Shown in pieces: positions 23,082 through 46,470 of a stretch of 64,000 nucleotides of DNA. Source of the DNA: Pachysolen tannophilus NRRL Y-2460 (Eukaryota); contig KV454011.1 in the NCBI GenBank assembly GCA_001661245.1, forward strand, positions 1,962,041 to 2,026,040, read 5' to 3'. Each line of letters begins with the position of its first letter. Position 1 is the first letter of the stretch. The position numbers and the translations under genes were made by a program. The notes below the pieces were generated by a model. That model was not told the DNA's origin and did no database searches. It was given only the letters and a program-made list of their open reading frames with translations.

Positions 23082-25493
23082 ATGCGACGCTTGACACCTA
23101 TAAGCCGACATATAAGTCGAAATACACGTAACATCAAGGAAACTTTAATAAATTTTCAATATCAGACAGTATCAAGGCATTATGGTAGAAGGTCATATTC
23201 ATCGGTGTGCATTTTGAACTCTATAACGTCATCTACAAAGTTATCATCAAAGGTAAGATCCGGAGATGATGCTGAAACCGTTTATCGGTCAAACCATGTA
23301 AATAGTTATAACAATAGCAACAACAACAACAATAATAATAATTGTAATAATAATAGGGAAGGGAGATTGGAACATATAGGGGATAGCATTGAATTTGAAA
23401 ATAAGTTAACTAAAACTTTCTTGTTAAAAATCAGAGAACATAAGTACAATTCAGTCATAAGAATAATATATAAATATCATAAGAAACCATTTATAGAATC
23501 ATCCGATAACTTGGAATCGATAATACAGGAGTTGGTGAGTTTAAATCAGAAAAGATTAGCATTTGAGTTTATTAAGATACATGAAGAAATGATTATACGA
23601 AATGTACAATGTTTCAAACCAGATACACTAATTGTATTTTTAGAGTTGATTTATATATTTCAGCGATATGAAATGTTTGATAAGCTTTTCTCTTATTACA
23701 TCAATAATAGTGATTTGGATTTGAAAACTATTCAGAATGCCATTAGTTTCTATATAAAGACAGGTAGAATCGAGTTTGCAAAGCAGTTACTATATCAAAT
23801 GTCATTTTATTTCAATTCCAGAAAGGACAATAATCACGATAATACAGATGTGGAATTTCTATTATACTCCTACCTAACTTCATTGGAAAAATTCAGGGCC
23901 CCTTTGGTTTTATTTGAATTTGGATTTAACACTTGGAAAACCCAAAAATTATCTATTAACAATAAAAGTTATGCTTTAATGATGGATAAATATTATTTAT
24001 CGAAAAATAATGATAAGATTGAAAAATTTAAACGTTATCTACAAGAAATAAATAAAAATGATGTTATAGAGGTTCAACTAGTGAATTTTTATGAAATATT
24101 AAGAAATGGCAACTTGAGTGAGGAAGAACGTTATAAGATGATTTTAGAATGGAGAAACAATATCAACAGTCTTAATGATAGTGAAACGTTGACCTTGTTT
24201 TACAAAAAAATCATTGATATTGTTTCATTTGTATTTAAGGATATTGACATGATACGGGCGAAACTTTTACCCTTAATAAGTGCTGATAATTTGAATAATA
24301 CTGTATCGATTTATTTATCGATAAGTAATTATTATTTACATACTAGAGATTTTGATGGGTTGGTTGAACTATTCGACAAGGAAATAATAGAACAGAAATT
24401 ACCGTTCACTTATAGACATTTAAGAATGGTTTGGGAAACTTTTATGAATGCATATCCAGATTATGGCAAGCATATTGAAACAAAGGACCTTGTTGAAAAA
24501 TTTGTTAAATATGATTTGGCATTATCTAAGGCGTGGGTAAGACAATTTTTAAACAGTATCCAGATTGATAAGCATAGATATAATATAGAGTACGCTTTCG
24601 GTTTGAGAAATAAATCGAATAAAGATGTTGTTAAACTTATAAAGGATATTGACGAAATGGATAAGTTAACAGCCACTGAAAGAGTCTCTAAATTAATTCA
24701 AAAATCTTTGGAAAATGGAGTAAATATTCATTCTCAAAGTTTCATTTCCATACTTGAAAAATATTTGAAGCTATCTAATAATATAGATGAGGTAGGTTTA
24801 TCTGAAATCAACCAACAACTTGCAACGTTAAATCTTGAAGTAAGTAATCGTTTGAAATTAGCTTTTTTGAAAAAAAAATTAAGATTAATTGAAATTCGTA
24901 AATATGAGGTACAAGATCAGCATTTGGACACAAGAATATTACAGTCAAGAGTCATATCGAATTTTGTTGAAGATAACGTTGATGAAAGTTTTGTTAGGAA
25001 AGATTTTTCGGAGTTATGTGATATCTTAATTGATTTCAAATTCAACACGGAAGCTGAAGAAATTTTGAATAACAAATTGAAAAAGGAGAAAACAACGGCT
25101 GATACAGATTTGGGTTATGATCAAATGTTATTAAGCATTTTGGAGACAAAATTGTATTTTAATGATTTGAAAAAATTTATATTGAGTGTTGAACATTTTA
25201 AATCTGAGTTGTTGAGTGGCAAAGTATTTATTAGGAAATTTTATTTCCAACATTTGAAAGTATCAGAAAAGAAATTCAAACTGAAATTCTTTCAAGAACT
25301 AAGAGAATTGAGTAAAAATGAAAACCAAAATGAAGCTTTTGAAAAGAAAAAATTAGTTTATGAGAATTTTTTACATTATTTCCATAATTTTATTAAACTT
25401 TGTGTTCAAAATTATGCTGAAAGAAGAACTCTTGAAAGAAGAAAGTTTTATCAAATTTTTAACCGATATTTGAAACGGGTTGTTGAAGAATGA
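23082..25493 (+). CDS. PET111: Mitochondrial helical-repeat (PPR-like) protein, probable COX2 translational activator Pet111
   Basis: 803 aa, Arg/Ser-rich acid-poor presequence-like N-terminus, PPR-like helices (NNKSYALMMDKY). Size and position beside ROY1 and COX7 match S. cerevisiae YMR256C-257C-258C. The name rests mainly on synteny. Confidence 0.6.
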   Translation: MRRLTPISRHISRNTRNIKETLINFQYQTVSRHYGRRSYSSVCILNSITSSTKLSSKVRSGDDAETVYRSNHVNSYNNSNNNNNNNNCNNNREGRLEHIGDSIEFENKLTKTFLLKIREHKYNSVIRIIYKYHKKPFIESSDNLESIIQELVSLNQKRLAFEFIKIHEEMIIRNVQCFKPDTLIVFLELIYIFQRYEMFDKLFSYYINNSDLDLKTIQNAISFYIKTGRIEFAKQLLYQMSFYFNSRKDNNHDNTDVEFLLYSYLTSLEKFRAPLVLFEFGFNTWKTQKLSINNKSYALMMDKYYLSKNNDKIEKFKRYLQEINKNDVIEVQLVNFYEILRNGNLSEEERYKMILEWRNNINSLNDSETLTLFYKKIIDIVSFVFKDIDMIRAKLLPLISADNLNNTVSIYLSISNYYLHTRDFDGLVELFDKEIIEQKLPFTYRHLRMVWETFMNAYPDYGKHIETKDLVEKFVKYDLALSKAWVRQFLNSIQIDKHRYNIEYAFGLRNKSNKDVVKLIKDIDEMDKLTATERVSKLIQKSLENGVNIHSQSFISILEKYLKLSNNIDEVGLSEINQQLATLNLEVSNRLKLAFLKKKLRLIEIRKYEVQDQHLDTRILQSRVISNFVEDNVDESFVRKDFSELCDILIDFKFNTEAEEILNNKLKKEKTTADTDLGYDQMLLSILETKLYFNDLKKFILSVEHFKSELLSGKVFIRKFYFQHLKVSEKKFKLKFFQELRELSKNENQNEAFEKKKLVYENFLHYFHNFIKLCVQNYAERRTLERRKFYQIFNRYLKRVVEE

Positions 25494-25607: not shown

Positions 25608-27404
25608 CTATATATCATGAGGCCCAATAATATTTTTCTCACATCCTACATCATCAAAAACATTAATGATTTTTCTTTCACTGTTAATTTTGTAAAAAAC
25701 TCCTCCTAATATACAAGTCTTTAACTTTGGTAATAAGTCAACACAATTATCCACATATGCTTCCATGAAATGTGACATCACTTTAACCAAAGCTTCAAAA
25801 GCGGATTGGTTAAACTTGCATACGAAATCTTCATCATATTCGTAGTGATGTTCAAACTTAGTTGTTTTCTTGCTGCCAGTATTATGAAAATCCCATGATT
25901 TAGAAAAAAAGGGATACGACAAGCATTGTAAATTTGAACAATTTTGTTCCAAGTTGTCATAATTCAATAACCTTTGGTTCAAATAATTTGCTGCAATACT
26001 GAAGAACCTTGGTGAAATCACATCTTTCATTAGTCCAGTGGCTTCATCGTAATAGCAATGATTCATTATGAAAGTATCAAAAATTGATAAATGAACTTCA
26101 CAAAACTCACACCTGCACCCGTTCCACAATAGCTCCGAGGTTATTACTTCATAACATGAACATGAATTCATAAAACTTGGCGATATTAAAGTTTTCAAAT
26201 TTTGTAAAATTGGTAAAAACTTTGAATATAATTTTTTCCTTCTTAAAAAATTTCCCTCCACGTTATTTTCAATGTTTCCATCAGTTGGAGGGTTATGATG
26301 AATAATCAATGTTTCCAAATTAGACGATATTTTAGGATCAAGATTATAAATAAATCTACCCAAATTGATATCAAATTTTTCAATAAAACTATGATCTTTA
26401 TGTAATGTCTTTTCAATAAAAGATAAAATTTTTAAATTAGTAGAAAAGTTTGAATTTTTCTCTTTTAAATTAGTTAATCCACTTAATTCATCAACAAACT
26501 CTGTGAGACAACTACAATTCAAATCATAATCACAGCCCATTGTTATTTCTAAACTTTTCAAAATAGACAAATCCACGTATTTAAAAAGAAAATCGCTCAT
26601 TAAATTTCTCAAATGCAAATTATAATCATTGAAGCCGTGATAGTAAATGAATTTCAAAGATTTAAATTGAAATAATTTCCCATTAGGTGGTTTTAAGAAT
26701 TCAATAATAAATTTCAAAAAATTCAAAGTCGATAATTCATCAAATGATAAATATAAAGAATCTAATCCAAATAATATTTTTAAACAATAATCTTTATCAA
26801 CAGCCAAGTCTGTAACCACTTTAATTTCATCTTTAAATGAATCTTGAAAATTTATTGTTAAATTCTTAACTGACAAAGGTAATTTCGATAATTCATAACA
26901 ATGATTGATCATGCATGTAGTAAGACTGTGGAAAGAATTGGGAAAACTTAAATTAAAATTATTGTTAAAATTTAAATATGTTTGCAAATTGATACTCTTA
27001 GCTTGTAACAAGTTCGCTAACTCCACATTAACATTTTCATAGTTGAATATCACAACCTTCTCCACATATGGTAGAATCTCCTCGTTTACTTTTAAAGACT
27101 GGAGTAAGATATCTTGTCTTGTCTTGAAAATCAAATCATTCAATCTTTTATCAGCCAATATATTTGACGACCCACTCACAATAGTATATTTACAACAATC
27201 ATAATCATCCGCCAAGAACCCATTACAATCAGACTTAAATAACAAGTTCTGGTACAACAGCGGCAAAACCAATGTGTACAACTTATAATTCGTTTGTAAC
27301 AACTGGAATTTGCTCTGTTGAGCCAACCTTTTAATAATCTTAGAAATTATATCATCAGGTAGACTCTCAAAGTTAACCGCCTTTACCTTTTTAACAGCGA
27401 CCAT
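25608..27404 (-). CDS. ROY1: F-box protein Roy1-like
   Basis: N-terminal F-box (FESLPDDIISKII). C-terminal LLWNGCRCEFC...FDTFIMNH and CKFNQSAFE...SHF...LPKLKTCILGG resemble Ymr258c. First ATG at 27404. Confidence 0.82.
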   Translation of the reverse strand: MVAVKKVKAVNFESLPDDIISKIIKRLAQQSKFQLLQTNYKLYTLVLPLLYQNLLFKSDCNGFLADDYDCCKYTIVSGSSNILADKRLNDLIFKTRQDILLQSLKVNEEILPYVEKVVIFNYENVNVELANLLQAKSINLQTYLNFNNNFNLSFPNSFHSLTTCMINHCYELSKLPLSVKNLTINFQDSFKDEIKVVTDLAVDKDYCLKILFGLDSLYLSFDELSTLNFLKFIIEFLKPPNGKLFQFKSLKFIYYHGFNDYNLHLRNLMSDFLFKYVDLSILKSLEITMGCDYDLNCSCLTEFVDELSGLTNLKEKNSNFSTNLKILSFIEKTLHKDHSFIEKFDINLGRFIYNLDPKISSNLETLIIHHNPPTDGNIENNVEGNFLRRKKLYSKFLPILQNLKTLISPSFMNSCSCYEVITSELLWNGCRCEFCEVHLSIFDTFIMNHCYYDEATGLMKDVISPRFFSIAANYLNQRLLNYDNLEQNCSNLQCLSYPFFSKSWDFHNTGSKKTTKFEHHYEYDEDFVCKFNQSAFEALVKVMSHFMEAYVDNCVDLLPKLKTCILGGVFYKINSERKIINVFDDVGCEKNIIGPHDI

Positions 27405-28469: not shown

Positions 28470-30686
28470 CTAAAGCTGAACAGAATCGTAATCAAAATTG
28501 GGGAAATAATTGTTTAAAACTTCTTTTATCCCAAGACTATATTTCATAACGAAATCGTCGTTGCTGATACTTACTTTCCGAAATCTTTTGGAAAGTTTAC
28601 AGCATCTAGTTAAATTGGAGTTCAATTCATTTTGTGACATTTCAATTTTACTCAAGTCGTTTTCTTCATCGTTCCCACTTCTCTTGTCTTGTAAATTGAA
28701 AATAACATGTAAGATCTTAATCAACAAAATTGAAGAAAATAATGAACAAAAATGTATTTGATCACTTAAAAAGGCAAAATAAGAATCATTCGATGTTTCC
28801 AATATAATAGCATCCAACACTTTTTGAGCATGGAAAACCATTGATCTTATCGAAATACTATCTGCCAATAGTAATGTATTATCCATCAAATTATTGTCCA
28901 TTATCAAATCTGCATTGTTTGCAGAAGTAAAAATAGACTCTTCTTCAGCATCGTCATCAGTAGCTTTTTTCAATTTCCTATAATTCCAATTGTACAAGAT
29001 CAATAAATAACCATAATGATAACCTAACTCAACAAATTGGTTTGCAGGTTGATCAAATAAATAACCCCATTGCTCAAACCAGGTTTTCAATTCTTCTCTC
29101 ACAATTTGTAAAGATTGGCGCATGGAATCATTACATTGTATAAAATTATAGACCAAGAGTTGAAGACTTATTTCACTAACCATTCTACCATCGAAATTTG
29201 TTGAAGACGGCAAATTGAGACATTTCCTTGATAAATTCAATCGCAATTCATCTATTATACACATTCGTCCAGTGAATATACAATTCACTATATGTACCAA
29301 CGATAAATGATTCCAAAGTCTATATGCAGTCAACTCATAAAACTCTTCTGTCATATAATCTGGTTTTTCTTTTAATATTATCCCCAAAGAATCTCTTGTA
29401 ATAAATTGTTGTAAACCAATTCCTGATAAATACCAAGCATCAATACTGAAATCTGCATCTGCAGAGGAAAAAGATAATCCATATATGCTTAATATCACTA
29501 ATGCTTGTAAGAATTCTAAAACCTGAGGAGTTTGAATTATATTTTTCTGCAATTCTAATTTAATCCTAGTTAATAAGACTTTTTTATCGAGAACAGCATT
29601 TAAATTTGAGTAACGTAAGGATAAGAAACAACATACAATCAACAATAAGGGACAATTATTTTGAAATTTTAGTACCAATTTTTCTGTGGACACGTTATCT
29701 GGGAATGAGACCCATCTCCCGTATCTATCCCTAAAATCTTGTAGTAATTCAATGGCTTGGTCCTGAGTTAATAAACCGAGTGCAATAAAATTAGCCTCAG
29801 CCAGTGGTTGCCGCTGATTTAAAGATGGATATAATAATTTTGAAATTGGACTTGGAATACAATTTGAAGAACAAATTTTGCTAAAGGAAACAAATGGAGA
29901 TGTTAAGTAGGAAGTTGATGGTGTTCCAAAAGTTCTATAACTGTTCAGATCCATTTCAGCAGAATAGGGGAATAACTTTATATGCTTGATCTCGTTCAAA
30001 AGAACAACATCTCCTTCTTCCAAAGATTGCGATGTTGAATTCATTGGCTCCTCTGATTTAGACTGTCGTGATACATCCTTATCGTATTTTAAAACCTGTA
30101 ATATTTCATTCACATCTTTTTGAAGAATCTTTATTCTATTTTCAAGTGATAAACCATTACCCGTTATTGTACCATTCCCACTCCTGTTATTTGCTTCTCT
30201 AACAGCAGTCAGTGATTTAGTACCTAATCCACCATGATTATTCCCCATTACTTCATTAGTGGATAGCGCACCAATCCCACCATCTTGTAAAATTGCTTCT
30301 TCTTCAAAAGAACAAATCTGACCCAACGAAGAACATCTTAAACACCCAATCGAACTAGTCGAGGGGAAACATCTCGTTTTCTGTTTCCTGCAAGTTGTAC
30401 AAGCTTTCGACACCCGCGTTGCAGGAACTGTCTTGACTTTCTTAGTTTTAACATTTGATCTTGAACTCTCTTTACTATCACCGGTCTCCTTAACATCTGA
30501 AGACTCTAAACCATGCTTCTTTTCACTTCCGCGGTAAGACAGAGTAGACAGAGTAGACAGATTTATCTGCGAATAAATAGCACTATAGTCCATTTTACTA
30601 TTACCCAGTTGCAAATTCGGCAAACTCAGCAAGTCATTAAAAGACCCTTCTTCACGCCTGCCATGAACTCTACCTTTTTCATCCAT
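28470..30686 (-). CDS. URC2: Zn(II)2Cys6 transcription factor, Urc2/YDR520C-like (alternative start ATG at 30593)
   Basis: ACTTCRKQKTRC...CLRC...C cluster; middle-region motifs YGRWVSFP, YRLWNHL, STNFDGRMVSEI. Confidence 0.7.
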   Translation of the reverse strand: MDEKGRVHGRREEGSFNDLLSLPNLQLGNSKMDYSAIYSQINLSTLSTLSYRGSEKKHGLESSDVKETGDSKESSRSNVKTKKVKTVPATRVSKACTTCRKQKTRCFPSTSSIGCLRCSSLGQICSFEEEAILQDGGIGALSTNEVMGNNHGGLGTKSLTAVREANNRSGNGTITGNGLSLENRIKILQKDVNEILQVLKYDKDVSRQSKSEEPMNSTSQSLEEGDVVLLNEIKHIKLFPYSAEMDLNSYRTFGTPSTSYLTSPFVSFSKICSSNCIPSPISKLLYPSLNQRQPLAEANFIALGLLTQDQAIELLQDFRDRYGRWVSFPDNVSTEKLVLKFQNNCPLLLIVCCFLSLRYSNLNAVLDKKVLLTRIKLELQKNIIQTPQVLEFLQALVILSIYGLSFSSADADFSIDAWYLSGIGLQQFITRDSLGIILKEKPDYMTEEFYELTAYRLWNHLSLVHIVNCIFTGRMCIIDELRLNLSRKCLNLPSSTNFDGRMVSEISLQLLVYNFIQCNDSMRQSLQIVREELKTWFEQWGYLFDQPANQFVELGYHYGYLLILYNWNYRKLKKATDDDAEEESIFTSANNADLIMDNNLMDNTLLLADSISIRSMVFHAQKVLDAIILETSNDSYFAFLSDQIHFCSLFSSILLIKILHVIFNLQDKRSGNDEENDLSKIEMSQNELNSNLTRCCKLSKRFRKVSISNDDFVMKYSLGIKEVLNNYFPNFDYDSVQL

Positions 30687-30905: not shown

Positions 30906-32537
30906 ATGTCAAAAGAAGAAGAAGACCAATCTGTGATAAAAGCGAATGAAGATCATGATGGGAAAGTAGATGATGATAATAAGAAAGTTGAGAGAAGCAA
31001 GAGTGTAATATCAATGCCTTCTCATGCGTTGAAAGCTTTACCTCTGCAAGTTTTAACCAAATTGAATGTTGAAAAAGTTGAGGAAACACCGGTAGATTTG
31101 ATATTTTCGAATTCTATTATGCTCTTGTTATCGTCATATTTAAATATCAATTCATTTACGTCATTGTCGATCCAGAAATTATTAGGTCTTGCAAAAGTAT
31201 ATTTAAACCAGTTAATACTACATTTGAAAAAATTTATGGAATTTCAAAGAAGGCGGAAACCAGCATTAAGAGATTTGAAGCTTTTGATACGATTATTTGG
31301 GTTGGACTTCAGTGGAATAGATGAAGATGTTTTAAAATTCCGTGAATTATCTAAAACACAAGATTTTAAGTTAAAATTTAACAAAATTTCGAATGATTCG
31401 ATAAGATTTATGAATAATGTAAAGCAAGAACAAGAAATACAAGAAGATGAAATTGATCCATTAGATCCCAGCTCATGTTTTTTTTTAAACCAATCTTATG
31501 AAATCAAAAATTTGGTACCATCGTCTTATGATAATATTTTTTCTTTAAAACACCTTACACATACTTCTTCTTTAATATTACCAGAACTCCCACCTGATTA
31601 CACATTTAAATCAACTCCGCAATTTACTGAAAATTATATTGAAAACGTTAATTTTATAAGAGAAAAATTGTTACAAGAAAGTCGATTAGGAGAAAAAGCT
31701 TTGGAGCATTTATCTAATGGATATGGCAACGAAATTAATGATGAAGTTGATTTGAAGATTGAAGAAGCTGACATCAGCGAAAGTGATAAAAGCGATGTCG
31801 AGAAAGAATTAGAAAGCGAAGAACCAAAAACCGTAGCAATAACTTCAGATCAAGACAATGGTCGCTCTCTTGGTCTTATTGATGAACTTCCAAAAATTGA
31901 AGAAGATGGAAAAATTCAACATTCCCTCTCTATTGAGAAACCAAAAGATGAGAAAAACACTAAAGAAATATTTGATATTGAAAAATTTGCAGCAAAGAGA
32001 TTGAAGAAATTACAAGAAAAAAAACAGCAAAAATTAAAATTTATTGAAGAATTTAAACAAAATAAGTTAAACAAGATCTCGTTATATTTAGGATCTTATT
32101 CAACAAAGACAATAAAGGATAATTCGATTGCTGTATTTATTGATGATTATATGAATGATGTCCTAAAAGATTCTATTGAGAACTTGAAAAAATATGAAAT
32201 TTTAAAGTATAAGAGAGATTTGAAAGAGGGAAAGAGAAAAAAGAAACTTCTTGAGAAAAATTTACTCCTTGAAAAGAAGAGAAGATTAAATAATTTTGAA
32301 TTTGGTGAAGAAGAAGACGAAGAAATTGTTGATTTTGAATTTAATTTTGATGATGATATAGATCAGAACCACGATTATGAGACTAATGCTGAAAATAAAG
32401 AGCAAGATGAAGAAGTTCAAGATTTACAAGAGTTCGAAAAGGATTCATTTGAGCCACAAGCGTCAATGACTGATATTATAGATAACAATGGTACACATTC
32501 AGTTGATTTAAAAACATCTGAAGAAGCACAAGGATAA
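30906..32537 (+). CDS. TAF8: TFIID subunit 8
   Basis: Histone-fold-like region ending LKKFMEFQRRRKP and the TAF8_C motif LPELPPDYTFKSTPQF...ESRLGEKALEHL. First ATG at 30906. Confidence 0.82.
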   Translation: MSKEEEDQSVIKANEDHDGKVDDDNKKVERSKSVISMPSHALKALPLQVLTKLNVEKVEETPVDLIFSNSIMLLLSSYLNINSFTSLSIQKLLGLAKVYLNQLILHLKKFMEFQRRRKPALRDLKLLIRLFGLDFSGIDEDVLKFRELSKTQDFKLKFNKISNDSIRFMNNVKQEQEIQEDEIDPLDPSSCFFLNQSYEIKNLVPSSYDNIFSLKHLTHTSSLILPELPPDYTFKSTPQFTENYIENVNFIREKLLQESRLGEKALEHLSNGYGNEINDEVDLKIEEADISESDKSDVEKELESEEPKTVAITSDQDNGRSLGLIDELPKIEEDGKIQHSLSIEKPKDEKNTKEIFDIEKFAAKRLKKLQEKKQQKLKFIEEFKQNKLNKISLYLGSYSTKTIKDNSIAVFIDDYMNDVLKDSIENLKKYEILKYKRDLKEGKRKKKLLEKNLLLEKKRRLNNFEFGEEEDEEIVDFEFNFDDDIDQNHDYETNAENKEQDEEVQDLQEFEKDSFEPQASMTDIIDNNGTHSVDLKTSEEAQG

Positions 32538-32668
32538 TTATTAAAATGTTTATATATATTATTAATAGTCTGATGGGAAAAAAATTAAATATAAAATAAG
32601 GACAATGAAAACCGTAATGTACACTTTTATACAATGAAAACGTAAGCTTTTAAGATACATAAAATAAT

Positions 32669-33558
32669 CTAAACGTAAACTCTTTTAATTTCAATCTCTT
32701 GAAATAGACCGTCTTGTTTTAATTCAATTTTTTTAGAAGTTGCTAATACTAACAATTCGAAAAAACATTTAGTTGCAAATTTTTTAGGGTATTTAATTTC
32801 TTGATCTTTATTTAAATTACTGAAAATGTATGAAAAATTCGTTTTTTCTTCAGTATTATCTCTTTCAGTTACTAAGGATAAAATATTTTGGCTGTATGAA
32901 TTAGATTCTTCTTCTTCTTCTTCCTCTATTTCTTGTTCTTCATCTTCTACTTCTTGCTCTTGTTGTTTTTCAAACTGTCTAGATTCAAGCATGTTATCAT
33001 TGTCAAATTCGAAATCAGGTCCATAATTTTCAAACAAGTTTTGTTCATTTAGTTGTGATCTTTGATTTTGTTCGTATTCTTGTTCAAGTTCAGCAGTTCC
33101 AACGTGTTCTATTCTTCTTTTCTTTAAGAGACTATATTCTTCAAGTAGGTGAACATAACCAGCATCCAATTCATCTTCTAATATTAATTCTTGAACATTT
33201 CTTGGATCAATATTCAAAGAGCAACGTTGCTCCAATTGTTTTTTAATTTCTGCTGAAGTCAATTCTATAACATCATCTGTCACCAATCTTCTTTTCAAAG
33301 TTCTAACCACATCCGAGTCCAAAAATTTCAAAGTCCTGCTTTTGCGCTGACTCTTTTGTTGTTGAGATTGAGATTGCTCTAATGACTGTACAGGTAAAGA
33401 CATTTCATTTGTTGGCGTAAGTGGTTGATCATTTCCAAGATCGAAATCTTGTGGGCCAGCTACAAAATCATCGTTAAAAGTTAAATCCGGCAACAAATTT
33501 ACCGAATGCTCTGCCCCTTCAATATCATCTAATGGACGTGCATGATCTCTTCCAATTT
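32669..33558 (-). CDS. MCD1: Cohesin kleisin Mcd1/Scc1/Rad21, C-terminal half (frame open from 33565; first in-frame ATG at 33403 would give 244 aa)
   Basis: KRRLVTDDVIELTSAEIK resembles the Rad21 Scc3/SA-binding segment. KKFATKCFFELLVLATSKKIELKQDGLFQEIEI is the Rad21 C-terminal winged helix. Confidence 0.9.
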
Positions 33559-33697
33559 TTAATTTTTATCAAATGTTTAATACCTATAAAGAGAGAAGGT
33601 TTGTCTGGTTTTGATTTTTCTTTTGGTTGTTGTTGCTGTTGCTGTTGTTTTTTTTTGTTTTTGTTGTTGTTGCTGGATAGATAATATAGTGTTGGAA

Positions 33698-34363
33698 ATG
33701 TCGTTTTCACAACAGTTATTGTCAAGAGATGGTCCATTGGCTCATGTGTGGCTTGCTGCAAATTTGGAAAAGAAGTTGACCAAGAATCAGTTGTTGTCGA
33801 CCAATATTTCAAAAACAACATTAGCTATTTCGGACTCGAATAGGAGTCTTCAAGTTGAGCCATTGGCATTAAGATGGACAGGGACATTACTTTATGGTAT
33901 TGTTCGGATTTATTCTCGTAAGGCCAAATATTTGTTAGATGATGTATCAGATGCTTTATTCCGGTTAAAGACGTGTTTTAAGTCGAATAGTAATAGCGTT
34001 ATATTACCAGCAGAGGCAACAGTTATTCCTTCGGTTAAACAGGTTATTTTGAATGATACCGTGACGGCCAATGATTTGTTGTATCAAGCACCTTTAAGTT
34101 TTGATGATGATAATACCAATGAACAAGTTAAAAATTATGGTAGTGAGAATATGAATGAAGACAGTCTTGTTGTTGACGCTTCAACTGGTTCAATTGAATT
34201 AGGAAGAGGAAATGAATTTATGGATGACTTGGATCATCATCATAATAATAGTATGAACAATAATGATTTAGATCTTGAGTTAGATTTTGATTTGGGTGAA
34301 GATGAAGAAAATGTTTCTCATCGTGTATCCGATATAAGTGTTGTTAAAAAAAAAACTAACTAG
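33698..34363 (+). CDS. MCD1: Cohesin kleisin Mcd1/Scc1/Rad21, N-terminal half (221 aa; last residues VKKKTN are read-through beyond the inversion breakpoint)
   Basis: Rad21/Rec8 N-domain GPLAHVWLAANLEKKLTK...PLALRWTGTLLYGIVRIYSRKAKYLLDD, plus separase-type site SIELGR at 34190..34207. Confidence 0.93.
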   Translation: MSFSQQLLSRDGPLAHVWLAANLEKKLTKNQLLSTNISKTTLAISDSNRSLQVEPLALRWTGTLLYGIVRIYSRKAKYLLDDVSDALFRLKTCFKSNSNSVILPAEATVIPSVKQVILNDTVTANDLLYQAPLSFDDDNTNEQVKNYGSENMNEDSLVVDASTGSIELGRGNEFMDDLDHHHNNSMNNNDLDLELDFDLGEDEENVSHRVSDISVVKKKTN

Positions 34364-34380
34364 TCAACCTTTTTGGTCAA

Positions 34381-34386
34381 ACGCGT
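34381..34386. promoter_or_regulatory. MCB element ACGCGT (MBF site)
   Basis: Perfect ACGCGT in AT-rich intergenic DNA. It lies about 176 bp upstream of the MCD1 ATG once the inversion is reversed, and MCD1 is an MBF target in budding yeasts. Confidence 0.65.
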
Positions 34387-34658
34387 CCTTCTCGAGGAAA
34401 ACACGAAGAAAACACCAAAAAAAAAACCACAAAAGTCGTGGATTGTGATATCAATTTGTAAGCGGACAAAAAGAAGGTGAAGAAGATATATAATAATAAT
34501 AGACAAAGGTAATGGCGGTTAATTAATTATAATATATATTTGAATAAAATATTGAATAGGATTAATTAGTTTTCAATCTGTTCAAATTTGGTTTTGATTG
34601 ATTTGTTGATTCTGAGATTTAGTTTTTTTTGGGACCTGAGTATTTTGCTTAATTTAGA

Positions 34659-37600
34659 ATGGTCTACGGAAGACATTATTTGAATGGTAATAGTTCGAGG
34701 TCTTTTAAAAGAAGGGTCGTGGACGATAATGGAGATGAGGACGATGAGGAATATAGTGAGCAGCATGATCCAGAACAGGATGATGATGGGGATGAAATTG
34801 AAGATGAGAGTAATGCTGGAAGTGATAAGGAGCTGGTGAGTAAAGGTGGCGGGGAAGATAATGAAGATGTTCCAGATACAGCGGCGGTGACTCCGCAGAA
34901 AGTTAAACCAAAGAGAATAAATTATAATGAGGATCAAATGTTTGATGAATTATTACCTGATGATGATGAAGATGAGGAAGATGAAGAGGAAAAGGAGGAA
35001 CAGAAGAAGGAAAACATTAAAGTTGAAGATGATTATCAGGATGATTATAATGAAGATGATGACGAAGATGAAATGAAAGATTCGAAAGGAAGTAGGAAAA
35101 ATGTCACTCTAAATTATAAAAATAGAAGAGGAAGAAAAAGGAGAATCGATGATGATGATGATGATGATGCCTCTTTTCATAGCGAGAACGAAGATGAAGA
35201 TGAGGACGACGACGATGATAATCTAAGTTCAACTGAAGTTGAAGCTGAAGAAAGGAAAAAAATTAAAACATTTATCGCCAGTGATGATGACGATGATGAT
35301 GATGATGATGAAGAAGGAGAAGGAGTAACTAGAAGACTGAGAAGAAATGGACGGAAGAGAAAGGAAAAAAATGGCCGTAAAAGACCCAAGTCGGCTTCAA
35401 CTTCAAGAGGTCCGTTAAGAAGATCTAGAAGATTGAATAATGAAGCAGATGAGGATGACGATATGGTTTCAAATGGCCGCCATAGACGTACTCGTCGTGA
35501 AAACCGTAATGATGATGATGACGAGGTTGATGATGATAGTGAACATTTAACTTTAGCTGATGAATTGAGAGATTTGAAAAGTTTTTCGCCGCCTCATACT
35601 CCACCTCACAGGAAGTTTAATTTCAGGCAAAGAAAAGAAGTTAATTATCAAATTCCTCCTCCAATATTAAATGACGTTGAACTTGAAAGAGAATTCAGTG
35701 CTGCTGCTACAACAGCTTCGACGGCTACAAATAATGGAAGTTTATTTTTCTCAACAGCGACTCCTAAAAGAGGAAGGAAAACTGGTAACAGCTCAGTGAG
35801 AAATTTGTTATTTCCAACAGTGGGACCATTTGGTGGAAGTGATGTTAGCTCAGTCTTTGGTGAAAATATCCCAGGATTAACTGCTATTGCAGGGAACTTG
35901 AGCGATTCAGATTCGTCGGATGAAGATATTATACCTTTTAACAATAATAATGGCAATAATGTGAACAATGGTATTATTACTAATGCTAATAATAAGAAAA
36001 CGTTGAATACAACAGGTAAAGTTAATACAAAGAGTTCGTTAGCTGATAGCGACCCATTGGGTGTTGATATGAATATTGATTTTTCTGTTGTAGGTGGGCT
36101 AGATAACTATATAAATCAGTTGAAAGAAATGGTTGTATTACCTTTGCTTTACCCTGAAGTTTTCTCGAAATTTGGTATCACTCCACCTAGAGGTGTTTTA
36201 TTTCATGGTCCACCTGGAACTGGTAAGACATTAATGGCAAGAGCATTAGCTGCTTCGTGTTCAACTGAAAATACTAAAATTACATTTTTCATGCGGAAAG
36301 GTGCAGACTGTTTGTCCAAATGGGTGGGAGAAGCTGAAAGACAATTAAGATTGTTGTTTGAAGAGGCAAAGAATCAACAACCTTCAATTATATTTTTTGA
36401 TGAAATTGATGGTTTGGCTCCAGTCAGATCTTCAAAGCAAGAACAAATTCATGCATCGATTGTTAGTACTTTATTGGCATTAATGGATGGTATGGATAAC
36501 AGAGGACAAGTTATAGTCATTGGTGCCACAAATAGACCAGATTCTGTGGATCCTGCGTTAAGAAGACCAGGAAGGTTTGATAGAGAATTTTATTTCCCGT
36601 TACCAGACTTAAAGGCTAGAACCCAAATATTGAAAATACATACGAGGAATTGGAAGCCTCTGTTAGATGAAGCATTTTTGGACGAACTAGCACATTTAAC
36701 AAAAGGATATGGAGGAGCTGATCTAAGAGCTTTATGTACAGAAGCTGCATTGAATTCTATACAAAGACAATATCCTCAAATATATCAAACGAAGGAAAAA
36801 TTAAAAATAAATCCAGAAAGGATTAAAATTGTATCAAAAGATTTTATGATGGCCTTAGACAAAATAATCCCTTCTTCATCAAGATCAATTTCTTCTTTAA
36901 GCTCTCCTCTTCCACAGCACATTGCTCCTTTATTAGAAGATAAATTCTTAGATATTGTGAAGAGACTAAACGAATTGATTCCATCTTTATCTTCATCGAA
37001 CAAAAAGTTGACTTCTCTTGAACAAGCGATGTATGTCGATATGACAGAATCTGATCCAGATGGAGGTTTTAAAAGACAGAAATTGATAAAGAGCTTAAGT
37101 ACTATAAGGACATTTAAACCGAGAATATTAATTAGTGCCCAACCTGGTAGTGGTCAAATTTATATTGGAAGTGCGATTTTAAACTACTTAGAAGGTTTCC
37201 ATGTTCAGTCCCTTGATTTGAGTAATTTATTTAATGATTCTTCTAGAAGTATTGAATCCGCTATTATTCAAATGTTCATTGAAGCCAAGAGACACAAGCC
37301 TTCCGTTATATATATTCCGAATGTTGATATTTGGTATAATGCAATTCCAGATCTGTCTAAGTCGACTTTGTTAAGCTTACTAAGATCAATTCAACCACAT
37401 GATAAAATATTGCTTTTAGGAATATCTGATTTAGATTATCGATACCTTTCAAAAGATTTGAAAGACATCTTTGGTTTGAATAACTTCATTGACTTGCAAA
37501 TAAAGTTGTCTCAACCGAAATTGGAAAAGTTTTTTGATCAATTATGGATTGCGCTTCATTTAAAACCATTTGAATATATTGATGATTTTGAAAATAGACC

Positions 37601-39074: not shown

Positions 39075-42000
39075 CTAATTATTATCCAAAGCGTGATTCA
39101 ATTCAACTCTTACAACAGAAGATGTTTCCCTATCTCTGATAACTTTTAAATTATCAAATATTAAGCTCTTTAGCAGCAGAACGTCATTAATATTGGCATT
39201 GATATTGCTCAACATTTTTAGCAATTTATCATTGCATCTAATAAATTGAATACGACAATTTTCAATAGTGAAATCCAAATACTTGAACAACTGCATATAA
39301 CTTAATTTGAAAAGTTCTAAAATTTCGTCATGCAAGTCAATTTTGGTGGAAATAATAGTAAACTTTATGCACAACGATGACATATTTTTGCACGTCGAAA
39401 TATATGATCTCCAAGTTGGAACAATAAAATCAGTATTATATATTTTCAAAAATGAATTCAATGTCAACGACAATAGTTCATTAGAGTAGAAAAATTTTCC
39501 ATCATCTTCATGTATGTTAAAGGCAGAAACCAAACTCTCAACTAACGATAACCTTTCTTCCTCTCTTCTTAAATTTTTACGGGATGATTTGGTGTTTTCA
39601 TGATCACCCGTTTTTAATTTTTTGAATTCTTTAACGTTATAGTCGTCGTCATCACTCTCATTTTCATAATAGTTATCATCTAGGACTTCTGACATGGTTT
39701 TAACGTACTCTTCAATTATTTCGTTAAAAGAACCCACGTATTCACCCATAATCTTGATAACATGTTTCTTGTATTCTTTATTATTTCTTCCTGCTTCTGT
39801 TAGTATGACTTTGTTGATCTTTTCTAGCAAATCATCATCTTCTTCGTTGTCATAAACAAACTTCTTTGATTTAATAGCCAAAAAAACTAATGCTGCCAAA
39901 ACACTCTCTTTTCCCGCCCAAGTTCTACCTTTACAAGCATTTAATATGACTTTAAATAATTGATAAGTTACTTTAGAGCTCATACCGTTCAAACCCCCAT
40001 CAATATTCTCACAAGCATCAGCGATACTTTCAGCGCATACTTTCCTTATTAGATACTTTTGGGAATCAAGGTATTCATCAACCAACAGGCAAATTTCGCC
40101 AATATAGTAAGAAATAGCTCCCTTCCCAGAAACGTTATCAACCCACTCGTTTTCGAAAAAAGTTCGAACTGATTTATCTGGGTCATGTTTTGCTACAAAT
40201 ACGAATGGTAGAAATGCGGAACTGACAGAAGAAAATCTGTCACCACTATATTTCGAAATTGACTCACAAGTCATACCAGCAATCTGCCTTTCTCGGGTGT
40301 CATCAGATTCAAAATACATCGCTTTTAACTTCTTTGATAAGGAAACTACAGCATCTATTGATGCTATACGGCATAAATAACCAGCAGCAGAAGCATACGA
40401 AGAAGCAATAGTTTCATTTCTATCTTTAATTTCGTGAATACAAATTTTCAAAAGTTGGTCACCATGAGGCTTGACAACATACAAATGTCTGACAACTAAT
40501 GTGACTAAAACTCTACTTCCTGCAGCTTTGGAAGGTAAACCAATTGAATTACGAATACTAGACCGTAACACTGGTACGAGATCTTTCATTAAATCATCAT
40601 CAACCATATCTAGCAAGCTCTCAATAGCATCCATCATTGGAGAATGTCCAATACTTTGTAATCTTTTAGCATCTATTTCACTAGCCTTCAATTTATACTT
40701 GTCGGCATTTAATGTCAAGTAATTAATAATTTGTGGTTCTAGAGTTGACATTAACATAATTAATTGATCAATTAAATTTGGAATAAAAGGTCTAATAGCA
40801 ACCCCCGATTTTTTACATAAACTTAAAATAGTCTCTAAAGCAAAGTTTCGAACGTCTTCAACGTCACTCAATAGACCATTAGGACCCAATAAAGTTGGAA
40901 TTAACTTCGATAAAATATTACTTGCTTTCGTTAAAGAAGCACCAGATGCAAAATCAATACTTCTGATCAAAATAGTAGCCAAAGTTCTAGTTAGTTGATT
41001 ACCCTCTTTACGAACGCTGTCTTTAATATCATCAACAGATCTTAAACTCATATTCCAAATTTCCTCTAACCTGTTCTCATATTTCTCTAATGGAACGGTC
41101 TGTAGCAAATCAAGCAAAGCAACAGTTGACGCTTGTCTGACTCTCCATTCTTTATTACCCATTCCTGATAACAATTCATTCAAAATCAAGTCAAAATGAG
41201 CAGAAATAGTCTTAGAGGTATCAATAACCAAAGTGTTCCAAATGTCATTCATGGAATTTTGAACAGAAGTTGAGGGATCATACCTATATCTGTACAACTT
41301 TGGAATGAGCTTTTTGAATAGTTTATCATTTGTCATTAACAACTGATCGAGACTAGACTTCGATAAGATCGATCCTAATCCAAACACAACTCCTTTTCTT
41401 GAAGACCAAAGTGCAGAGTTCCTTGCTAGGGACATAAATTTGTAAACCAAACTAGGATCACCAACTTCAGATGCTAAATTCAAGATATCCTTATAACTTG
41501 AGACTGATCCATCTTCAGTTTTTAAAATTCCTGGTTCAAATAACTGAGTATCTTCAGAAACAGAACCTGATGTTAAAATCGCCAGGGACGTCGAATCTGT
41601 AAAAGATTTTAATAAGCCACGTACCAAAGTATGCTTCAAATCAGTGTCGCCCATTTCAAAAATCATACTTAGGCCTCTAGAAGCTGATTCTTGTATTATT
41701 TCATCCCTATCAGCTAAAAATCTCATGAATGCGAGATGCATCTCCGCCGCGACATCTTTTACTGGCTTCAAATGACCACAGTATTGTACCAAAGACAAAA
41801 GCCAAATGCAACCCGCCCTACGTAATGATGGTTTCGTATTTGAACAAGCATTTAAAATTTTTTCAATTAAAAAGCTTAAACGACTAAAATTTTTGATTAG
41901 CCTTATTTTCAATGGACCCTGTATATCAATTGATCTGTTTAGAACTTTTGAGTTCCATCCAGAAGCAACTATTGTAATCGCTTCGCCACTTGTGAACAAA

Positions 42001-44774
42001 TATTCAATTTGTTTAGAAACGTGAGTGTCATAAACGGATTTTTCAAAATCACTAAATCCCATTTCGTCAAATTCAGAATTTTCTGGATCCTCCACAGTTA
42101 GTGACAAATGTGCCCAAGTTATTGTGGCCTTCTCGTTACACTTTTTAACTTTCGGTCTGATCTCTTCAATGAACTTCAGTCTATAGCTTTGAACACTATC
42201 AGTTAGCACCACTTCAGGACCTAATGCACCAAAAATTGCTAACTGAGATATTGCCTCCATAGAAAAATTGATCACTCTAGTATTGGACGATTTCAAACCA
42301 TTCAAAATCTCTTCCAAAAGATTTTCATAAATTGTCTGTGATAATACTGAACAACGACCCCTTAGACACAATCTTGAAATTAAGTACCCCAACGCTAAAG
42401 TTTTGACTTCCATATCCATTGAAGCGCCATTTATATCATCAATTAATTTTAGAATAGAATCAACCGAGTTTTCTTCATGACTTGCAATTATACCTATAGC
42501 TTGTGAGATATAACGAATCAAACTTTCCGACACCGAAGTAGAACTATCTTTTAATAGTTTGAATAAGTTCGAAATTGCAGGAATCAATTTGAAAACAGTT
42601 GCAGAGCTAGACAATGACAAAATTCTATTAAAAGTTTTGCCAAATAATACCTTGGGGTCATTTTTGTTAATAGAATTACCAATAAATTCGTTCAATATAA
42701 TCTGTAAGAACGAATCCAAGGAGTTCCTAATAATATTGTTTTCAAAATCTAGTTCCACATTCTCTTCCTCGACCTTCAACGATAATTTTGTTAATTTTTC
42801 AGTTACTAACTTAAGCACATTCTCGTCATATTCCAATGACTTTTCTAGTCTGACATCCCACTCTCTATCCGTTATCACAACTGTTTGCTTGCCTTCAATG
42901 GATTCCATTACGAGCGTTTGAAGTGTAAATTTGATGGCATTTGTCATCGCAAAGCGTAAACTTGATTTTTTACCATTTTTAGAAGAATCAACAACTTTTG
43001 ATAAACTTGACACCATATTGGCAAATTTTGGAAATTTGACATTTCTGTTATATCCCAACAAATCAGCTGTCGGTTTAAATTCATTTGAATTTGATGACTG
43101 CAAAATACTGAACCAATATGGATGCAACCCTTTTAAAGCTTCTTCTATGACGTTTGTTCTGTTATTCAACGACGTACCCAAAATACACATTATTCTTGCA
43201 TCAGGATCTTCAAAGGAAAAGCAGCAGTTGACGTACTTGATTGCTATATAACGGCAACTATACAAACCTTCAATTGCATGCTTCAGACTAGTGGCTTCGG
43301 ATCTTTTACACTCATCGATGGTTTCATCGTTAATAAGTAGAGAGTATAACAATTCTTTCAATGCCAATTTATCTTTATGAGATAGATTAGGTAGATGAAC
43401 TGTTAATCCAGATAATGCATCCTGGATGCTTGACCTCAATTCAGGTAAATCTGTTCTTAAAGAATCAAATAAAAACTCAATATAATTCAAGTTATCTAAT
43501 AATTTCGAATTCTTTTTCAAAATCACTCCCAATGCTTGATATTGAGAAGTTCTTTGTTTAACATAAGCAGCATAGTTCCTTGTATTTGAGTTGCTTTCTG
43601 ACCAGGAATCCGTAAGTAAATCATTTTTTAATTGTGCTGCAATTGTAACATTAAAAGAAGACGATTCGTTATCAGCGACATCCGTGCTAATTTCATTCGA
43701 AGAAACATTTTGTGTCACCCACTGAATAAATTGTATCGCTGCCTGTTTTAATTTAAGATAATCAGAGTTTAGCCCAAGTGATGATATTTTGGAAATATAT
43801 GCAGATTTAGTAGCAAACCTACTACGTAGTAAAATATTGCTTATAATTTTTTCTTGTAATGTTGATTTTACTGGTTTCACTCCTAAAGGCTGATTTCCAA
43901 CAATCATCAAGATTAATTTCTCTATTGATAGCCCATCTTCATAATCAATTGTCAATTTTTTCAAAAGAGAATTAGCCTGATCAGAAACAGACGATGATGA
44001 ATCTGTGCTTGCAACCAATAATGGAATTAACAAATATTTATCATCAAAACCGGTGGAAATAAACTTCAAAATGGCTAATTTATAATTTGTCAAATGTGTT
44101 GAATTAAATGAAACACCAGCTTGTGTTGTTAGGAACTTGCAGTCGCTATTACTTAAGCCAGGACAAGAATAATTTTCGGATATAGTATTTGTCCCATTGG
44201 TATTAACAACTGGCACAAACAAGAAAAGTTTTGTAAAACAAGTGCATATAAACTGTTCATCTTTTGGAAACTTGTCAAATTGCAAAAAATCAACTCGAAT
44301 ATCATTTGCCTCTTTTGTAGCCCTCAGCGGTTGTTTATAATTTAAAATCAATTTGCACAATATGTGGAAACATCTTGAAGCTATACTGGGCTGTAAATCT
44401 GAAATACCATGGATGACTTCTGGTATTAATTTTTTCTGTTCCTCTTGACTTAGTCTATCAATTCCTTTTGAAACAAAAAGCAGACTATATAATTGAACTG
44501 AAGTTGGATCCAAACCATCAGCCACTTTTGGCGATTTTACTTGTTTCAACAAAGCGTCAATTGGTAATTTAATCGAAGTGGCGGCGTTTATTCTAGTTAT
44601 CAAATGCTGCACAGATTTCAATATAGTGGTTCTAACTTCTGAATTGGGTGAGGCCAACTTCAATAATAATGGAGCCAAATACAATTTAAGTGAAGATTCA
44701 AATTTCTCATCAGTATCCGCCAATGCAATACGAAGCTCAACTTTATTCACCAACGCCAATTCAGCATCTGTCAT
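39075..44774 (-). CDS. ECM29: Proteasome-associated HEAT-repeat protein Ecm29
   Basis: ELALVNKVELRIALAD...YLAPLLLKLASP, PSLVYKFMSLA...LWSSRKG, LIPKLYRYRYDP, KEWRVRQAS. First ATG at 44774. Confidence 0.95.
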   Translation of the reverse strand: MTDAELALVNKVELRIALADTDEKFESSLKLYLAPLLLKLASPNSEVRTTILKSVQHLITRINAATSIKLPIDALLKQVKSPKVADGLDPTSVQLYSLLFVSKGIDRLSQEEQKKLIPEVIHGISDLQPSIASRCFHILCKLILNYKQPLRATKEANDIRVDFLQFDKFPKDEQFICTCFTKLFLFVPVVNTNGTNTISENYSCPGLSNSDCKFLTTQAGVSFNSTHLTNYKLAILKFISTGFDDKYLLIPLLVASTDSSSSVSDQANSLLKKLTIDYEDGLSIEKLILMIVGNQPLGVKPVKSTLQEKIISNILLRSRFATKSAYISKISSLGLNSDYLKLKQAAIQFIQWVTQNVSSNEISTDVADNESSSFNVTIAAQLKNDLLTDSWSESNSNTRNYAAYVKQRTSQYQALGVILKKNSKLLDNLNYIEFLFDSLRTDLPELRSSIQDALSGLTVHLPNLSHKDKLALKELLYSLLINDETIDECKRSEATSLKHAIEGLYSCRYIAIKYVNCCFSFEDPDARIMCILGTSLNNRTNVIEEALKGLHPYWFSILQSSNSNEFKPTADLLGYNRNVKFPKFANMVSSLSKVVDSSKNGKKSSLRFAMTNAIKFTLQTLVMESIEGKQTVVITDREWDVRLEKSLEYDENVLKLVTEKLTKLSLKVEEENVELDFENNIIRNSLDSFLQIILNEFIGNSINKNDPKVLFGKTFNRILSLSSSATVFKLIPAISNLFKLLKDSSTSVSESLIRYISQAIGIIASHEENSVDSILKLIDDINGASMDMEVKTLALGYLISRLCLRGRCSVLSQTIYENLLEEILNGLKSSNTRVINFSMEAISQLAIFGALGPEVVLTDSVQSYRLKFIEEIRPKVKKCNEKATITWAHLSLTVEDPENSEFDEMGFSDFEKSVYDTHVSKQIEYLFTSGEAITIVASGWNSKVLNRSIDIQGPLKIRLIKNFSRLSFLIEKILNACSNTKPSLRRAGCIWLLSLVQYCGHLKPVKDVAAEMHLAFMRFLADRDEIIQESASRGLSMIFEMGDTDLKHTLVRGLLKSFTDSTSLAILTSGSVSEDTQLFEPGILKTEDGSVSSYKDILNLASEVGDPSLVYKFMSLARNSALWSSRKGVVFGLGSILSKSSLDQLLMTNDKLFKKLIPKLYRYRYDPSTSVQNSMNDIWNTLVIDTSKTISAHFDLILNELLSGMGNKEWRVRQASTVALLDLLQTVPLEKYENRLEEIWNMSLRSVDDIKDSVRKEGNQLTRTLATILIRSIDFASGASLTKASNILSKLIPTLLGPNGLLSDVEDVRNFALETILSLCKKSGVAIRPFIPNLIDQLIMLMSTLEPQIINYLTLNADKYKLKASEIDAKRLQSIGHSPMMDAIESLLDMVDDDLMKDLVPVLRSSIRNSIGLPSKAAGSRVLVTLVVRHLYVVKPHGDQLLKICIHEIKDRNETIASSYASAAGYLCRIASIDAVVSLSKKLKAMYFESDDTRERQIAGMTCESISKYSGDRFSSVSSAFLPFVFVAKHDPDKSVRTFFENEWVDNVSGKGAISYYIGEICLLVDEYLDSQKYLIRKVCAESIADACENIDGGLNGMSSKVTYQLFKVILNACKGRTWAGKESVLAALVFLAIKSKKFVYDNEEDDDLLEKINKVILTEAGRNNKEYKKHVIKIMGEYVGSFNEIIEEYVKTMSEVLDDNYYENESDDDDYNVKEFKKLKTGDHENTKSSRKNLRREEERLSLVESLVSAFNIHEDDGKFFYSNELLSLTLNSFLKIYNTDFIVPTWRSYISTCKNMSSLCIKFTIISTKIDLHDEILELFKLSYMQLFKYLDFTIENCRIQFIRCNDKLLKMLSNINANINDVLLLKSLIFDNLKVIRDRETSSVVRVELNHALDNN

Positions 44775-45264: not shown

Positions 45265-46470
<1,206 letters not shown>

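What the first reader, a model, noticed from the sequence alone, without database searches (positions are those of the whole stretch)
32669..34363. Cohesin kleisin MCD1/SCC1 is split into two divergent intact ORFs, broken inside a separase-type site
Seen: the N-terminal half lies on + (33698..34363) and ends GAT ATA AGT GTT G|TTAAAA (DISV). The C-terminal half lies on - and begins |AA ATT GGA AGA GAT (IGRD). Reverse-complementing 33559..34343 joins them as GTT GAA ATT GGA AGA = DISVEIGRD, giving one uninterrupted 511-aa kleisin with no base lost. Neither half has stops or frameshifts, and a first site (SIELGR) survives in the N-half. Established: S-x-E-x-G-R is the yeast Scc1 separase motif, Mcd1 is essential in S. 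cerevisiae, and its cleavage opens the cohesin ring. Inference: as assembled, the locus encodes a genetically pre-cleaved kleisin. One chain is 221 aa (Smc3-binding); the other is up to 244 aa from ATG 33403 (Scc3-binding segment plus Smc1-binding winged helix). Possible explanations are a functional two-chain kleisin, a polymorphic or switchable inversion, RNA-level rejoining, replacement by Rec8 or a second copy, or misassembly. I cannot tell whether this has been reported.
Basis: partly seen in the sequence, partly recalled or inferred. Interest (0 to 1): 0.93.

Follow-up and report, generated by a model that had tools for sequence, protein, structure and literature searches.

The report
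Split yeast kleisin: probable assembly inversion
The cohesin gene MCD1/SCC1 looks cut in two by a 785-base flip in this yeast assembly, but contigs built from public sequencing reads join the flipped piece the other way round, so the gene is most likely whole and ordinary.

Summary
The window holds a Rad21/Rec8 N-domain ORF on + (33698..34363) and the rest of the kleisin on - (open frame 33565..32669, first ATG 33403). Flipping 33559..34343 gives a 511-aa frame with no internal stop and rebuilds a conserved S-[IV]-E-x-[GA]-R site.

The split is probably not real. In 4 of 4 public runs (2 samples, 2 studies, one possibly the assembly's own source), a read-derived contig joins 33559 to 34346 on opposite strands at single-copy depth. 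That is the promoter-side junction of the colinear gene, and it contradicts the window's 34343/34344 junction.

The colinear order also puts the window's only ACGCGT (MCB, G1/S) box 177 bp upstream of the ATG. All four runs also differ from the window at an A-run, so the assembly carries small errors here.

The coding-side junction itself was not covered by any laid contig, so a clone-specific or heterozygous inversion is not excluded.

Verdict: assembly inversion of an ordinary, intact MCD1/SCC1 (about 0.8). A real null allele is about 0.13. A working two-chain kleisin or switch is about 0.03. Interest is low.

The parts
33698..34363 (+). N-terminal half of the kleisin as assembled (221-aa ORF). 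Residues 1-215 are Scc1, and the last 6 (VKKKTN) are read-through into flank.
   Evidence: (PF04825 E 5.1e-31)
32669..33565 (-). C-terminal part of the kleisin. The frame is open for 298 codons, the Scc1 sequence starts at 33558, the first ATG is at 33403 (244-aa ORF), and the winged-helix Rad21_Rec8 domain is at the end.
   Evidence: (PF04824 E 7e-08)
33559..34343 (.). 785-bp segment whose orientation in the window is opposite to that in read-derived contigs. It holds 139 bp of 5' region plus codons 1-215 and the first base of codon 216.
   Evidence: table 5 and 8 (joint 33559/34346, opposite strands, 4 of 4 runs)
34190..34207 (+). First separase-type site, S-I-E-L-G-R (residues 165-170), intact in the N-half.
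33548..33558 (-). C-side remainder of the second site ((E)-I-G-R). The S-V and the first base of E lie at 34337..34343 on +.
34381..34386 (.). ACGCGT (MluI cell-cycle box), the only copy in the 64 kb. It lies 177 bp upstream of the kleisin ATG in the colinear order, and downstream of the truncated ORF in the window's order.
33604..33679 (.). Low-complexity (GTT/GCT/T)n tract in the 5' region, where the read-derived contigs end.
   Evidence: skipped repeats note
34344..34355 (.). TT plus a run of 10 A at the right junction. The contigs have 4 unaligned letters between 33559 and 34346 where an exact flip predicts 2.
   Evidence: table 8 (record 10983-10986 in X1)

Best explanation
The organism, an AT-rich budding yeast whose nearest named relatives are Kuraishia and Ogataea, has an ordinary single-chain MCD1/SCC1 gene on the - strand. 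It is transcribed divergently from the YTA7-like AAA/bromodomain gene. The 785-bp segment 33559..34343 (5' region plus the first 215 codons) was put into this assembly in the wrong orientation. The two 'halves' are intact because nothing happened to the gene. Shown here: the colinear promoter-side junction exists in read-derived contigs of two samples. Inferred: the coding-side junction is colinear too, and the window's order is an assembly product rather than a variant in the sequenced culture.
For: (1), tables 5 and 8. In 4 of 4 runs laid (X1, X2 and X4 are one sample; X5 is a second sample and study and may be the assembly's source), one contig per run joins 33559 to 34346 on opposite strands. 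Each has 45 letters on the short side and 240-770 on the long side, with no other letters. The contigs are 11,100, 11,100 and 11,099 nt in X1, X2 and X4, and 358 nt in X5. Their depth (21, 188.4, 137.8, 54.6) is in the range of the other contigs of the same runs, so the flank is single-copy and is attached to the promoter end of the segment, not to 34343. (2) In X5 a 536-nt contig covers 33680..34178 and runs on into the same low-complexity tract as the bridging contig (table 8). The N-half therefore lies with its promoter towards the YTA7 side. (3) Flipping the segment gives a 511-aa frame with 0 stops and rebuilds E216 of a site that 7 of 7 aligned relatives carry. Exactness to the base and no decay in either half are what an artefact predicts. 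(4) The only ACGCGT in 64 kb lies at 34381, 177 bp upstream of the ATG in the colinear order. MBF binds upstream of MCD1 in S. cerevisiae (PMC11457938, passages). (5) The window differs from all 4 runs by one A behind 34416, and probably also in the A-run at the junction (tables 4 and 8), so the assembly has small errors at this spot. (6) The kleisin is cohesin's ring-closing subunit, and its cleavage destroys cohesion (PMC4769318, abstract as listed). A haploid genome with only a cut copy is therefore a priori unlikely. (7) The word share of 0.98/0.97 over 6 kb is about what two junctions plus a homopolymer indel would cost. This is a weak point.
Against: The coding-side junction (34343 next to 33558) was not seen directly. 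Contigs drop rare variants, so a minority or heterozygous inverted form could exist in these samples. The window may come from a different culture than either sample. A blunt, base-exact inversion with no long inverted repeat at its ends (the best is 15 nt, 80%, AT-rich, I5) is not a typical product of any assembler I can name. The other 20 ORFs of 120 aa or more in the window are intact, including ones of 4204, 1899 and 1423 aa, so the assembly is not generally poor. In X1 the bin 34329-34419 holds 21.5 where the bridging contig alone would give about 17, and what else lies there is not listed.
Confidence: 0.8

Rival explanations
1. The inversion is real DNA but a dead allele. It is a recent two-break inversion carried by the sequenced clone or by one homologue of a diploid, and the assembler picked it. 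A colinear copy, as seen in the contigs, supplies function.
For: The window's arrangement was produced by some assembly of real reads and is base-exact. The colinear form is present in 2 of 2 samples, as a heterozygote would also show. Both halves are undecayed, so the event would be recent. X5's contigs are broken at 34178 and near 34556-34585 (table 8), which could reflect graph branching.
Against: The bridging contigs pass through the junction without a break in 4 of 4 runs at ordinary depth. A 1:1 heterozygous junction would usually end a contig there. No joint or listed piece shows the window's order. Homopolymer differences show that the assembly has errors here anyway.
Confidence: 0.13
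2. A working two-chain kleisin, or a reversible inversion that switches cohesin on and off. The two halves would be expressed from the 139-294 bp between them and assemble on Smc1/Smc3.
For: Both ORFs are open and each keeps its SMC-binding domain. The break is inside a separase-type site.
Against: The colinear junction is present in all runs. There are no flanking inverted repeats beyond chance. No recombinase family appears among the Pfam matches of 22 ORFs of 120 aa or more, though 5 had no match. The C-half has no ATG for 52 codons. A cut kleisin opens the ring (PMC4769318, abstract as listed). From recall, not checked here: the C-terminal separase fragment of S. cerevisiae Scc1 is unstable and harmful (Rao et al. 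2001). Relatives all carry one chain: 120 listed hits of 388 aa or more.
Confidence: 0.03
3. A dead duplicate. An intact MCD1 lies elsewhere in the genome, and this locus is a rearranged extra copy.
For: None found. It could not be tested because no whole genome is held.
Against: The flank contigs are at single-copy depth and join colinearly at this very locus. Neither half shows decay. The protein collection holds no full-length near-identical kleisin; the best is 62% identical.
Confidence: 0.02

Closest known systems
Scc1/Mcd1/Rad21 alpha-kleisin of budding yeasts (named relatives: Kuraishia capsulata, Ogataea spp., Komagataella spp.)
   Same: It has the Rad21_Rec8_N domain and the C-terminal Rad21_Rec8 winged helix. 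It has two S-x-E-x-x-R sites in the acidic linker and an LPD/LPE-like stretch after site 2. Once the segment is flipped its length is 511 aa, against 478-562 aa in the aligned relatives.
   Different: It is only 54-62% identical in the N-half to the best hits. As assembled, it lies in two pieces on opposite strands.
Small local inversion errors in genome assemblies
   Same: One gene among 22 large ORFs is affected. The inversion is base-exact with no sequence decay. It is contradicted by contigs rebuilt from reads, and there are homopolymer-length differences next to it.
   Different: No long inverted repeat or gap (N) marks the ends, so the way the error arose is not evident.
Separase-cleaved or TEV-cleaved Scc1 (experimental two-fragment kleisin)
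   Same: The break falls in the second ExxR site.
   Different: Separase cuts after R, while the break here is before E (PMC6858450, passages). Those fragments arise from a loaded ring and mark its destruction; they are not a functional state.

Membership tests
Rad21/Rec8 alpha-kleisin (Scc1/Mcd1) | N-terminal Rad21_Rec8_N domain (binds the Smc3 neck) | tested here: met
   PF04825, E 5.1e-31, residues 1-106 of the + ORF
Rad21/Rec8 alpha-kleisin (Scc1/Mcd1) | C-terminal Rad21_Rec8 winged helix (binds the Smc1 head) | tested here: met
   PF04824, E 7e-08, residues 260-295 of the - frame
Rad21/Rec8 alpha-kleisin (Scc1/Mcd1) | Both domains on one polypeptide | tested here: inconclusive
   Not so in the window. 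Read-derived contigs give the colinear promoter-side junction in 4 of 4 runs. The coding-side junction was not observed.
Rad21/Rec8 alpha-kleisin (Scc1/Mcd1) | ExxR separase sites in the linker, preceded by S or an acidic residue | tested here: met
   SIELGR at 165-170, and S-V-E-I-G-R at 214-219 after the flip. Consensus taken from PMC6858450. Cleavage itself is not testable here.
Rad21/Rec8 alpha-kleisin (Scc1/Mcd1) | Mitotic Scc1 rather than meiotic Rec8 paralogue | tested here: inconclusive
   The best hits that carry a source name are called SCC1, rad21 or MCD1. No tree was built, and the genome could not be searched for a second paralogue.
Site-specific invertible DNA switch | Inverted repeats at both ends of the invertible segment | tested here: not met
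   The only pair across the ends is 15 nt, 80% complementary and AT-rich. It is one of 44 pairs in 866 bases (I5). Nothing appears at the ends among the 25 longest of 374 pairs.
Site-specific invertible DNA switch | Recombinase or invertase gene nearby | tested here: not met
   No recombinase family among the Pfam matches of the 22 ORFs of 120 aa or more in the 64 kb. Five of these ORFs had no match at 1e-05.

The most novel reading that the evidence does not exclude
The inverted order is real in part of the population or on one homologue. This would be a blunt, base-exact inversion that severs the essential kleisin inside its second separase site, with the halves co-expressed from a shared short promoter as a two-chain cohesin or acting as an on/off switch.
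Probability: 0.04. Interest if true: 0.85.

Novelty: not a real feature. Interest (0 to 1): 0.1.

Why it matters
If the split were real it would challenge the view that cohesin needs a covalently continuous kleisin to hold sister chromatids. As it stands, it matters mainly as a quality flag. This assembly carries a local 785-bp orientation error, which causes an essential gene to be annotated as a 244-aa fragment (the only form of it in the protein collection). Gene catalogues or presence/absence studies built on the assembly would wrongly score MCD1 as truncated.

Tried and rejected
- Whole-genome search for a second Rad21/Rec8 copy: no genome is held for this window.
- RNA evidence: no RNA holder was listed by the look-up of sequencing runs, so expression and RNA-level rejoining could not be examined.
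- Coverage of the coding-side junction: no depth was laid on 33146..33509 or on 34238..34328 in any of the 4 runs. X1, X2 and X4 had nothing beyond traces (X1: 2.18 and 1.74 in two bins) on 33692..34328. The tool says a filter drops records, so these holes prove nothing either way. Only one laying is allowed.
- Looking for read-derived protein fragments that span the join: a 'near' search with the C-half found 2 proteins among 1200 candidates, the window's own 244-aa ORF and a 37% relative. A 'longer' search with the N-half found 154 hits, the best 62% identical. No other assembly or contig of this species is in that collection.
- Exact 25-nt search in metagenome contigs with the letters just before the right junction: 0 matches.
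With the N-half alone it gave 80 loci of distant fungi (35-70% identity over the N domain). I did not use them, because they say nothing about this species.
- Microhomology at the breakpoints: read by eye, the joins are blunt.
- Earlier findings of the scan: two look-ups returned nothing.
- I did not fold or dock the halves, because a structure prediction would not bear on whether the DNA order is real.

Full report
**What is in the window**

On the + strand, ORF 33698..34363 (221 aa) matches Pfam Rad21_Rec8_N (PF04825, E 5.1e-31). On the - strand a frame is open from 33565 to the stop at 32669. Its first ATG is at 33403 (the 244-aa ORF), and its end matches the Rad21_Rec8 winged helix (PF04824, E 7e-08).

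The neighbours are a TAF8-like gene to the left and a YTA7-like AAA/bromodomain gene (1423 aa) to the right. The window is 31.8% G+C. Neither kleisin half has a CTG codon, so the variant CUG codes of some yeasts do not affect the reading.

**Do the halves belong together?**

Yes. A search for longer relatives of the N-half gave 154 hits among 2470 candidates, of which 120 were listed. All listed hits are single-chain Rad21/Scc1 proteins. The best is 62% identical (a read-derived protein, 488 aa). The best named ones are from Kuraishia capsulata (54%) and Ogataea (55-56%).

I aligned the two halves with 7 of these relatives. The N-half ends at ...D-I-S-V and the C-half takes up at I-G-R-D, at a site where 7 of 7 relatives have S-[IV]-E-x-[GA]-R. 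A first site (SIELGR, 34190..34207) is whole in the N-half.

Reverse-complementing 33559..34343 by coordinates gives a 511-aa frame with no internal stop. The missing E is rebuilt from G at 34343 and AA at 33558-33557.

- Separase cuts after the R of ExxR (PMC6858450, passages). The break lies before the E, so it is not a 'pre-cleaved' mimic.
- A C-half translated from ATG 33403 would lack 52 residues.

**Is the DNA order real?**

No whole genome is held, so I went to public reads. Five runs hold 97-98% of the sampled words of window 31000-37000. Four come from one sample and study (X1-X4). One comes from a second sample and study and may be the assembly's own source (X5).

I laid the read-derived contigs of X5, X1, X2 and X4 on 32600-35300. 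In 4 of 4 runs one contig joins 33559 to 34346 on opposite strands:

| Run | Contig length (nt) | Depth |
|---|---|---|
| X1 | 11,100 | 21 |
| X2 | 11,100 | 188.4 |
| X4 | 11,099 | 137.8 |
| X5 | 358 | 54.6 |

- Each contig has 45 letters laid on the short side and 240 to 770 on the long side, with no other letters.
- The depths are in the range of the other contigs of each run, so the flank is single-copy.
- This is exactly the promoter-side junction of the colinear gene: the 5' region (33559..33697) abuts the intergenic DNA before YTA7.
- It is incompatible with the window's junction 34343/34344 as the main form in these samples.
- In X5 a further 536-nt contig covers 33680..34178 and runs on into the same low-complexity tract (33604..33679) as the bridging contig. 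This places the N-half pointing away from YTA7.

**Supporting details**

- The only ACGCGT in the whole 64 kb lies at 34381. In the colinear order that is 177 bp upstream of the kleisin ATG. In the window's order it lies behind the truncated ORF.
- MBF, which binds this box, acts upstream of MCD1 in S. cerevisiae (PMC11457938, passages). One such box in 64 kb is about what shuffles give (mean 1.5), so only its position is suggestive.
- All four runs have one more A behind 34416 than the window.
- The contigs carry 4 unaligned letters between 33559 and 34346, where an exact flip predicts 2. This would fit a longer A-run (tables 4 and 8; the letters are not shown, so this is my inference).
- The assembly therefore has small errors right here.

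**What remains open**

The tool warns that holes mean nothing, so I count that neither way.
- Contigs also drop rare variants.
- The inversion is blunt and base-exact, with no inverted repeat at its ends beyond a 15-nt, 80% AT-rich match of the kind seen 44 times in 866 bases. I cannot say how an assembler made it.
- The rest of the window is clean. The other 20 ORFs of 120 aa or more are intact, including a 4204-aa dynein heavy chain, a 1899-aa ECM29 and a five-unit polyubiquitin.
- A real, recent inversion in the sequenced clone or on one homologue therefore stays possible. I put it at about 0.13.
- A functional two-chain kleisin or a switch gets about 0.03. There are no repeats and no recombinase among the Pfam matches. 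The C-half has no start codon at the break. The colinear form is present everywhere. A cut kleisin is what ends cohesion (PMC4769318, abstract as listed).

**Comparison with the known**

Once flipped, this is an ordinary member of the Scc1/Mcd1/Rad21 family, with both terminal domains, two ExxR sites and an acidic linker. It is diverged (54-62% in the N-half) from its nearest sequenced relatives. No separate search for reports of a naturally split alpha-kleisin was made. My one literature search on kleisin fragments (35 papers held at least 4 of the 5 terms, 12 were listed) was aimed at cleavage fragments and is no proof that such a report is absent.

**Verdict**

This is not a real feature of the organism (confidence about 0.8). 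It is a local orientation error in the assembly that makes an essential gene look split. The protein collection holds it only as the 244-aa fragment on one 2.51-Mb contig. Interest is 0.1. The decisive test is read mapping or orientation-specific PCR across the two junctions on the assembly's own strain.

Noticed in passing
window 34407-34416: All 4 runs laid carry one more A behind 34416 than the window does (table 4). This is a homopolymer-length difference in the MCD1-YTA7 intergenic region.
   Followed up: no
window 34991-35052: In 4 of 4 runs a contig skips 60 letters (20 codons) inside the acidic GAT/GAA repeat region near the start of the YTA7-like gene. The shorter side is only 20 letters (table 5). 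It may be a true in-frame length difference or a repeat alignment effect.
   Followed up: no
window 34381-34386: This is the single ACGCGT (MCB) box of the whole 64 kb. It sits in the intergenic region shared by the kleisin (once flipped) and the YTA7-like gene.
   Followed up: partly
window 23082-25493, 25608-27404, 28470-30686, 55009-55995, 58411-60621: Five ORFs of 328 to 803 aa have no Pfam match at E 1e-05. They were not examined further.
   Followed up: no
whole window: CTG is rare: 74 of 1886 Leu-box codons in 22 ORFs. It is absent from the polyubiquitin gene and from both kleisin halves. Which amino acid CUG stands for in this yeast was not tested.
   Followed up: partly
window 33547-33558 and 34197-34208: The coding sequences of the two separase-type sites (E-I-G-R and E-L-G-R) form a 12-nt, 83% match (I14). 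It is inverted in the window and direct in the colinear order. Neither copy's partner is a breakpoint, so it does not explain the inversion.
   Followed up: partly
window 9933-22547, 39075-44774, 45265-46410: Intact dynein heavy chain (4204 aa), ECM29 (1899 aa) and a five-repeat polyubiquitin gene. These show that coding regions elsewhere in the window are well assembled.
   Followed up: yes
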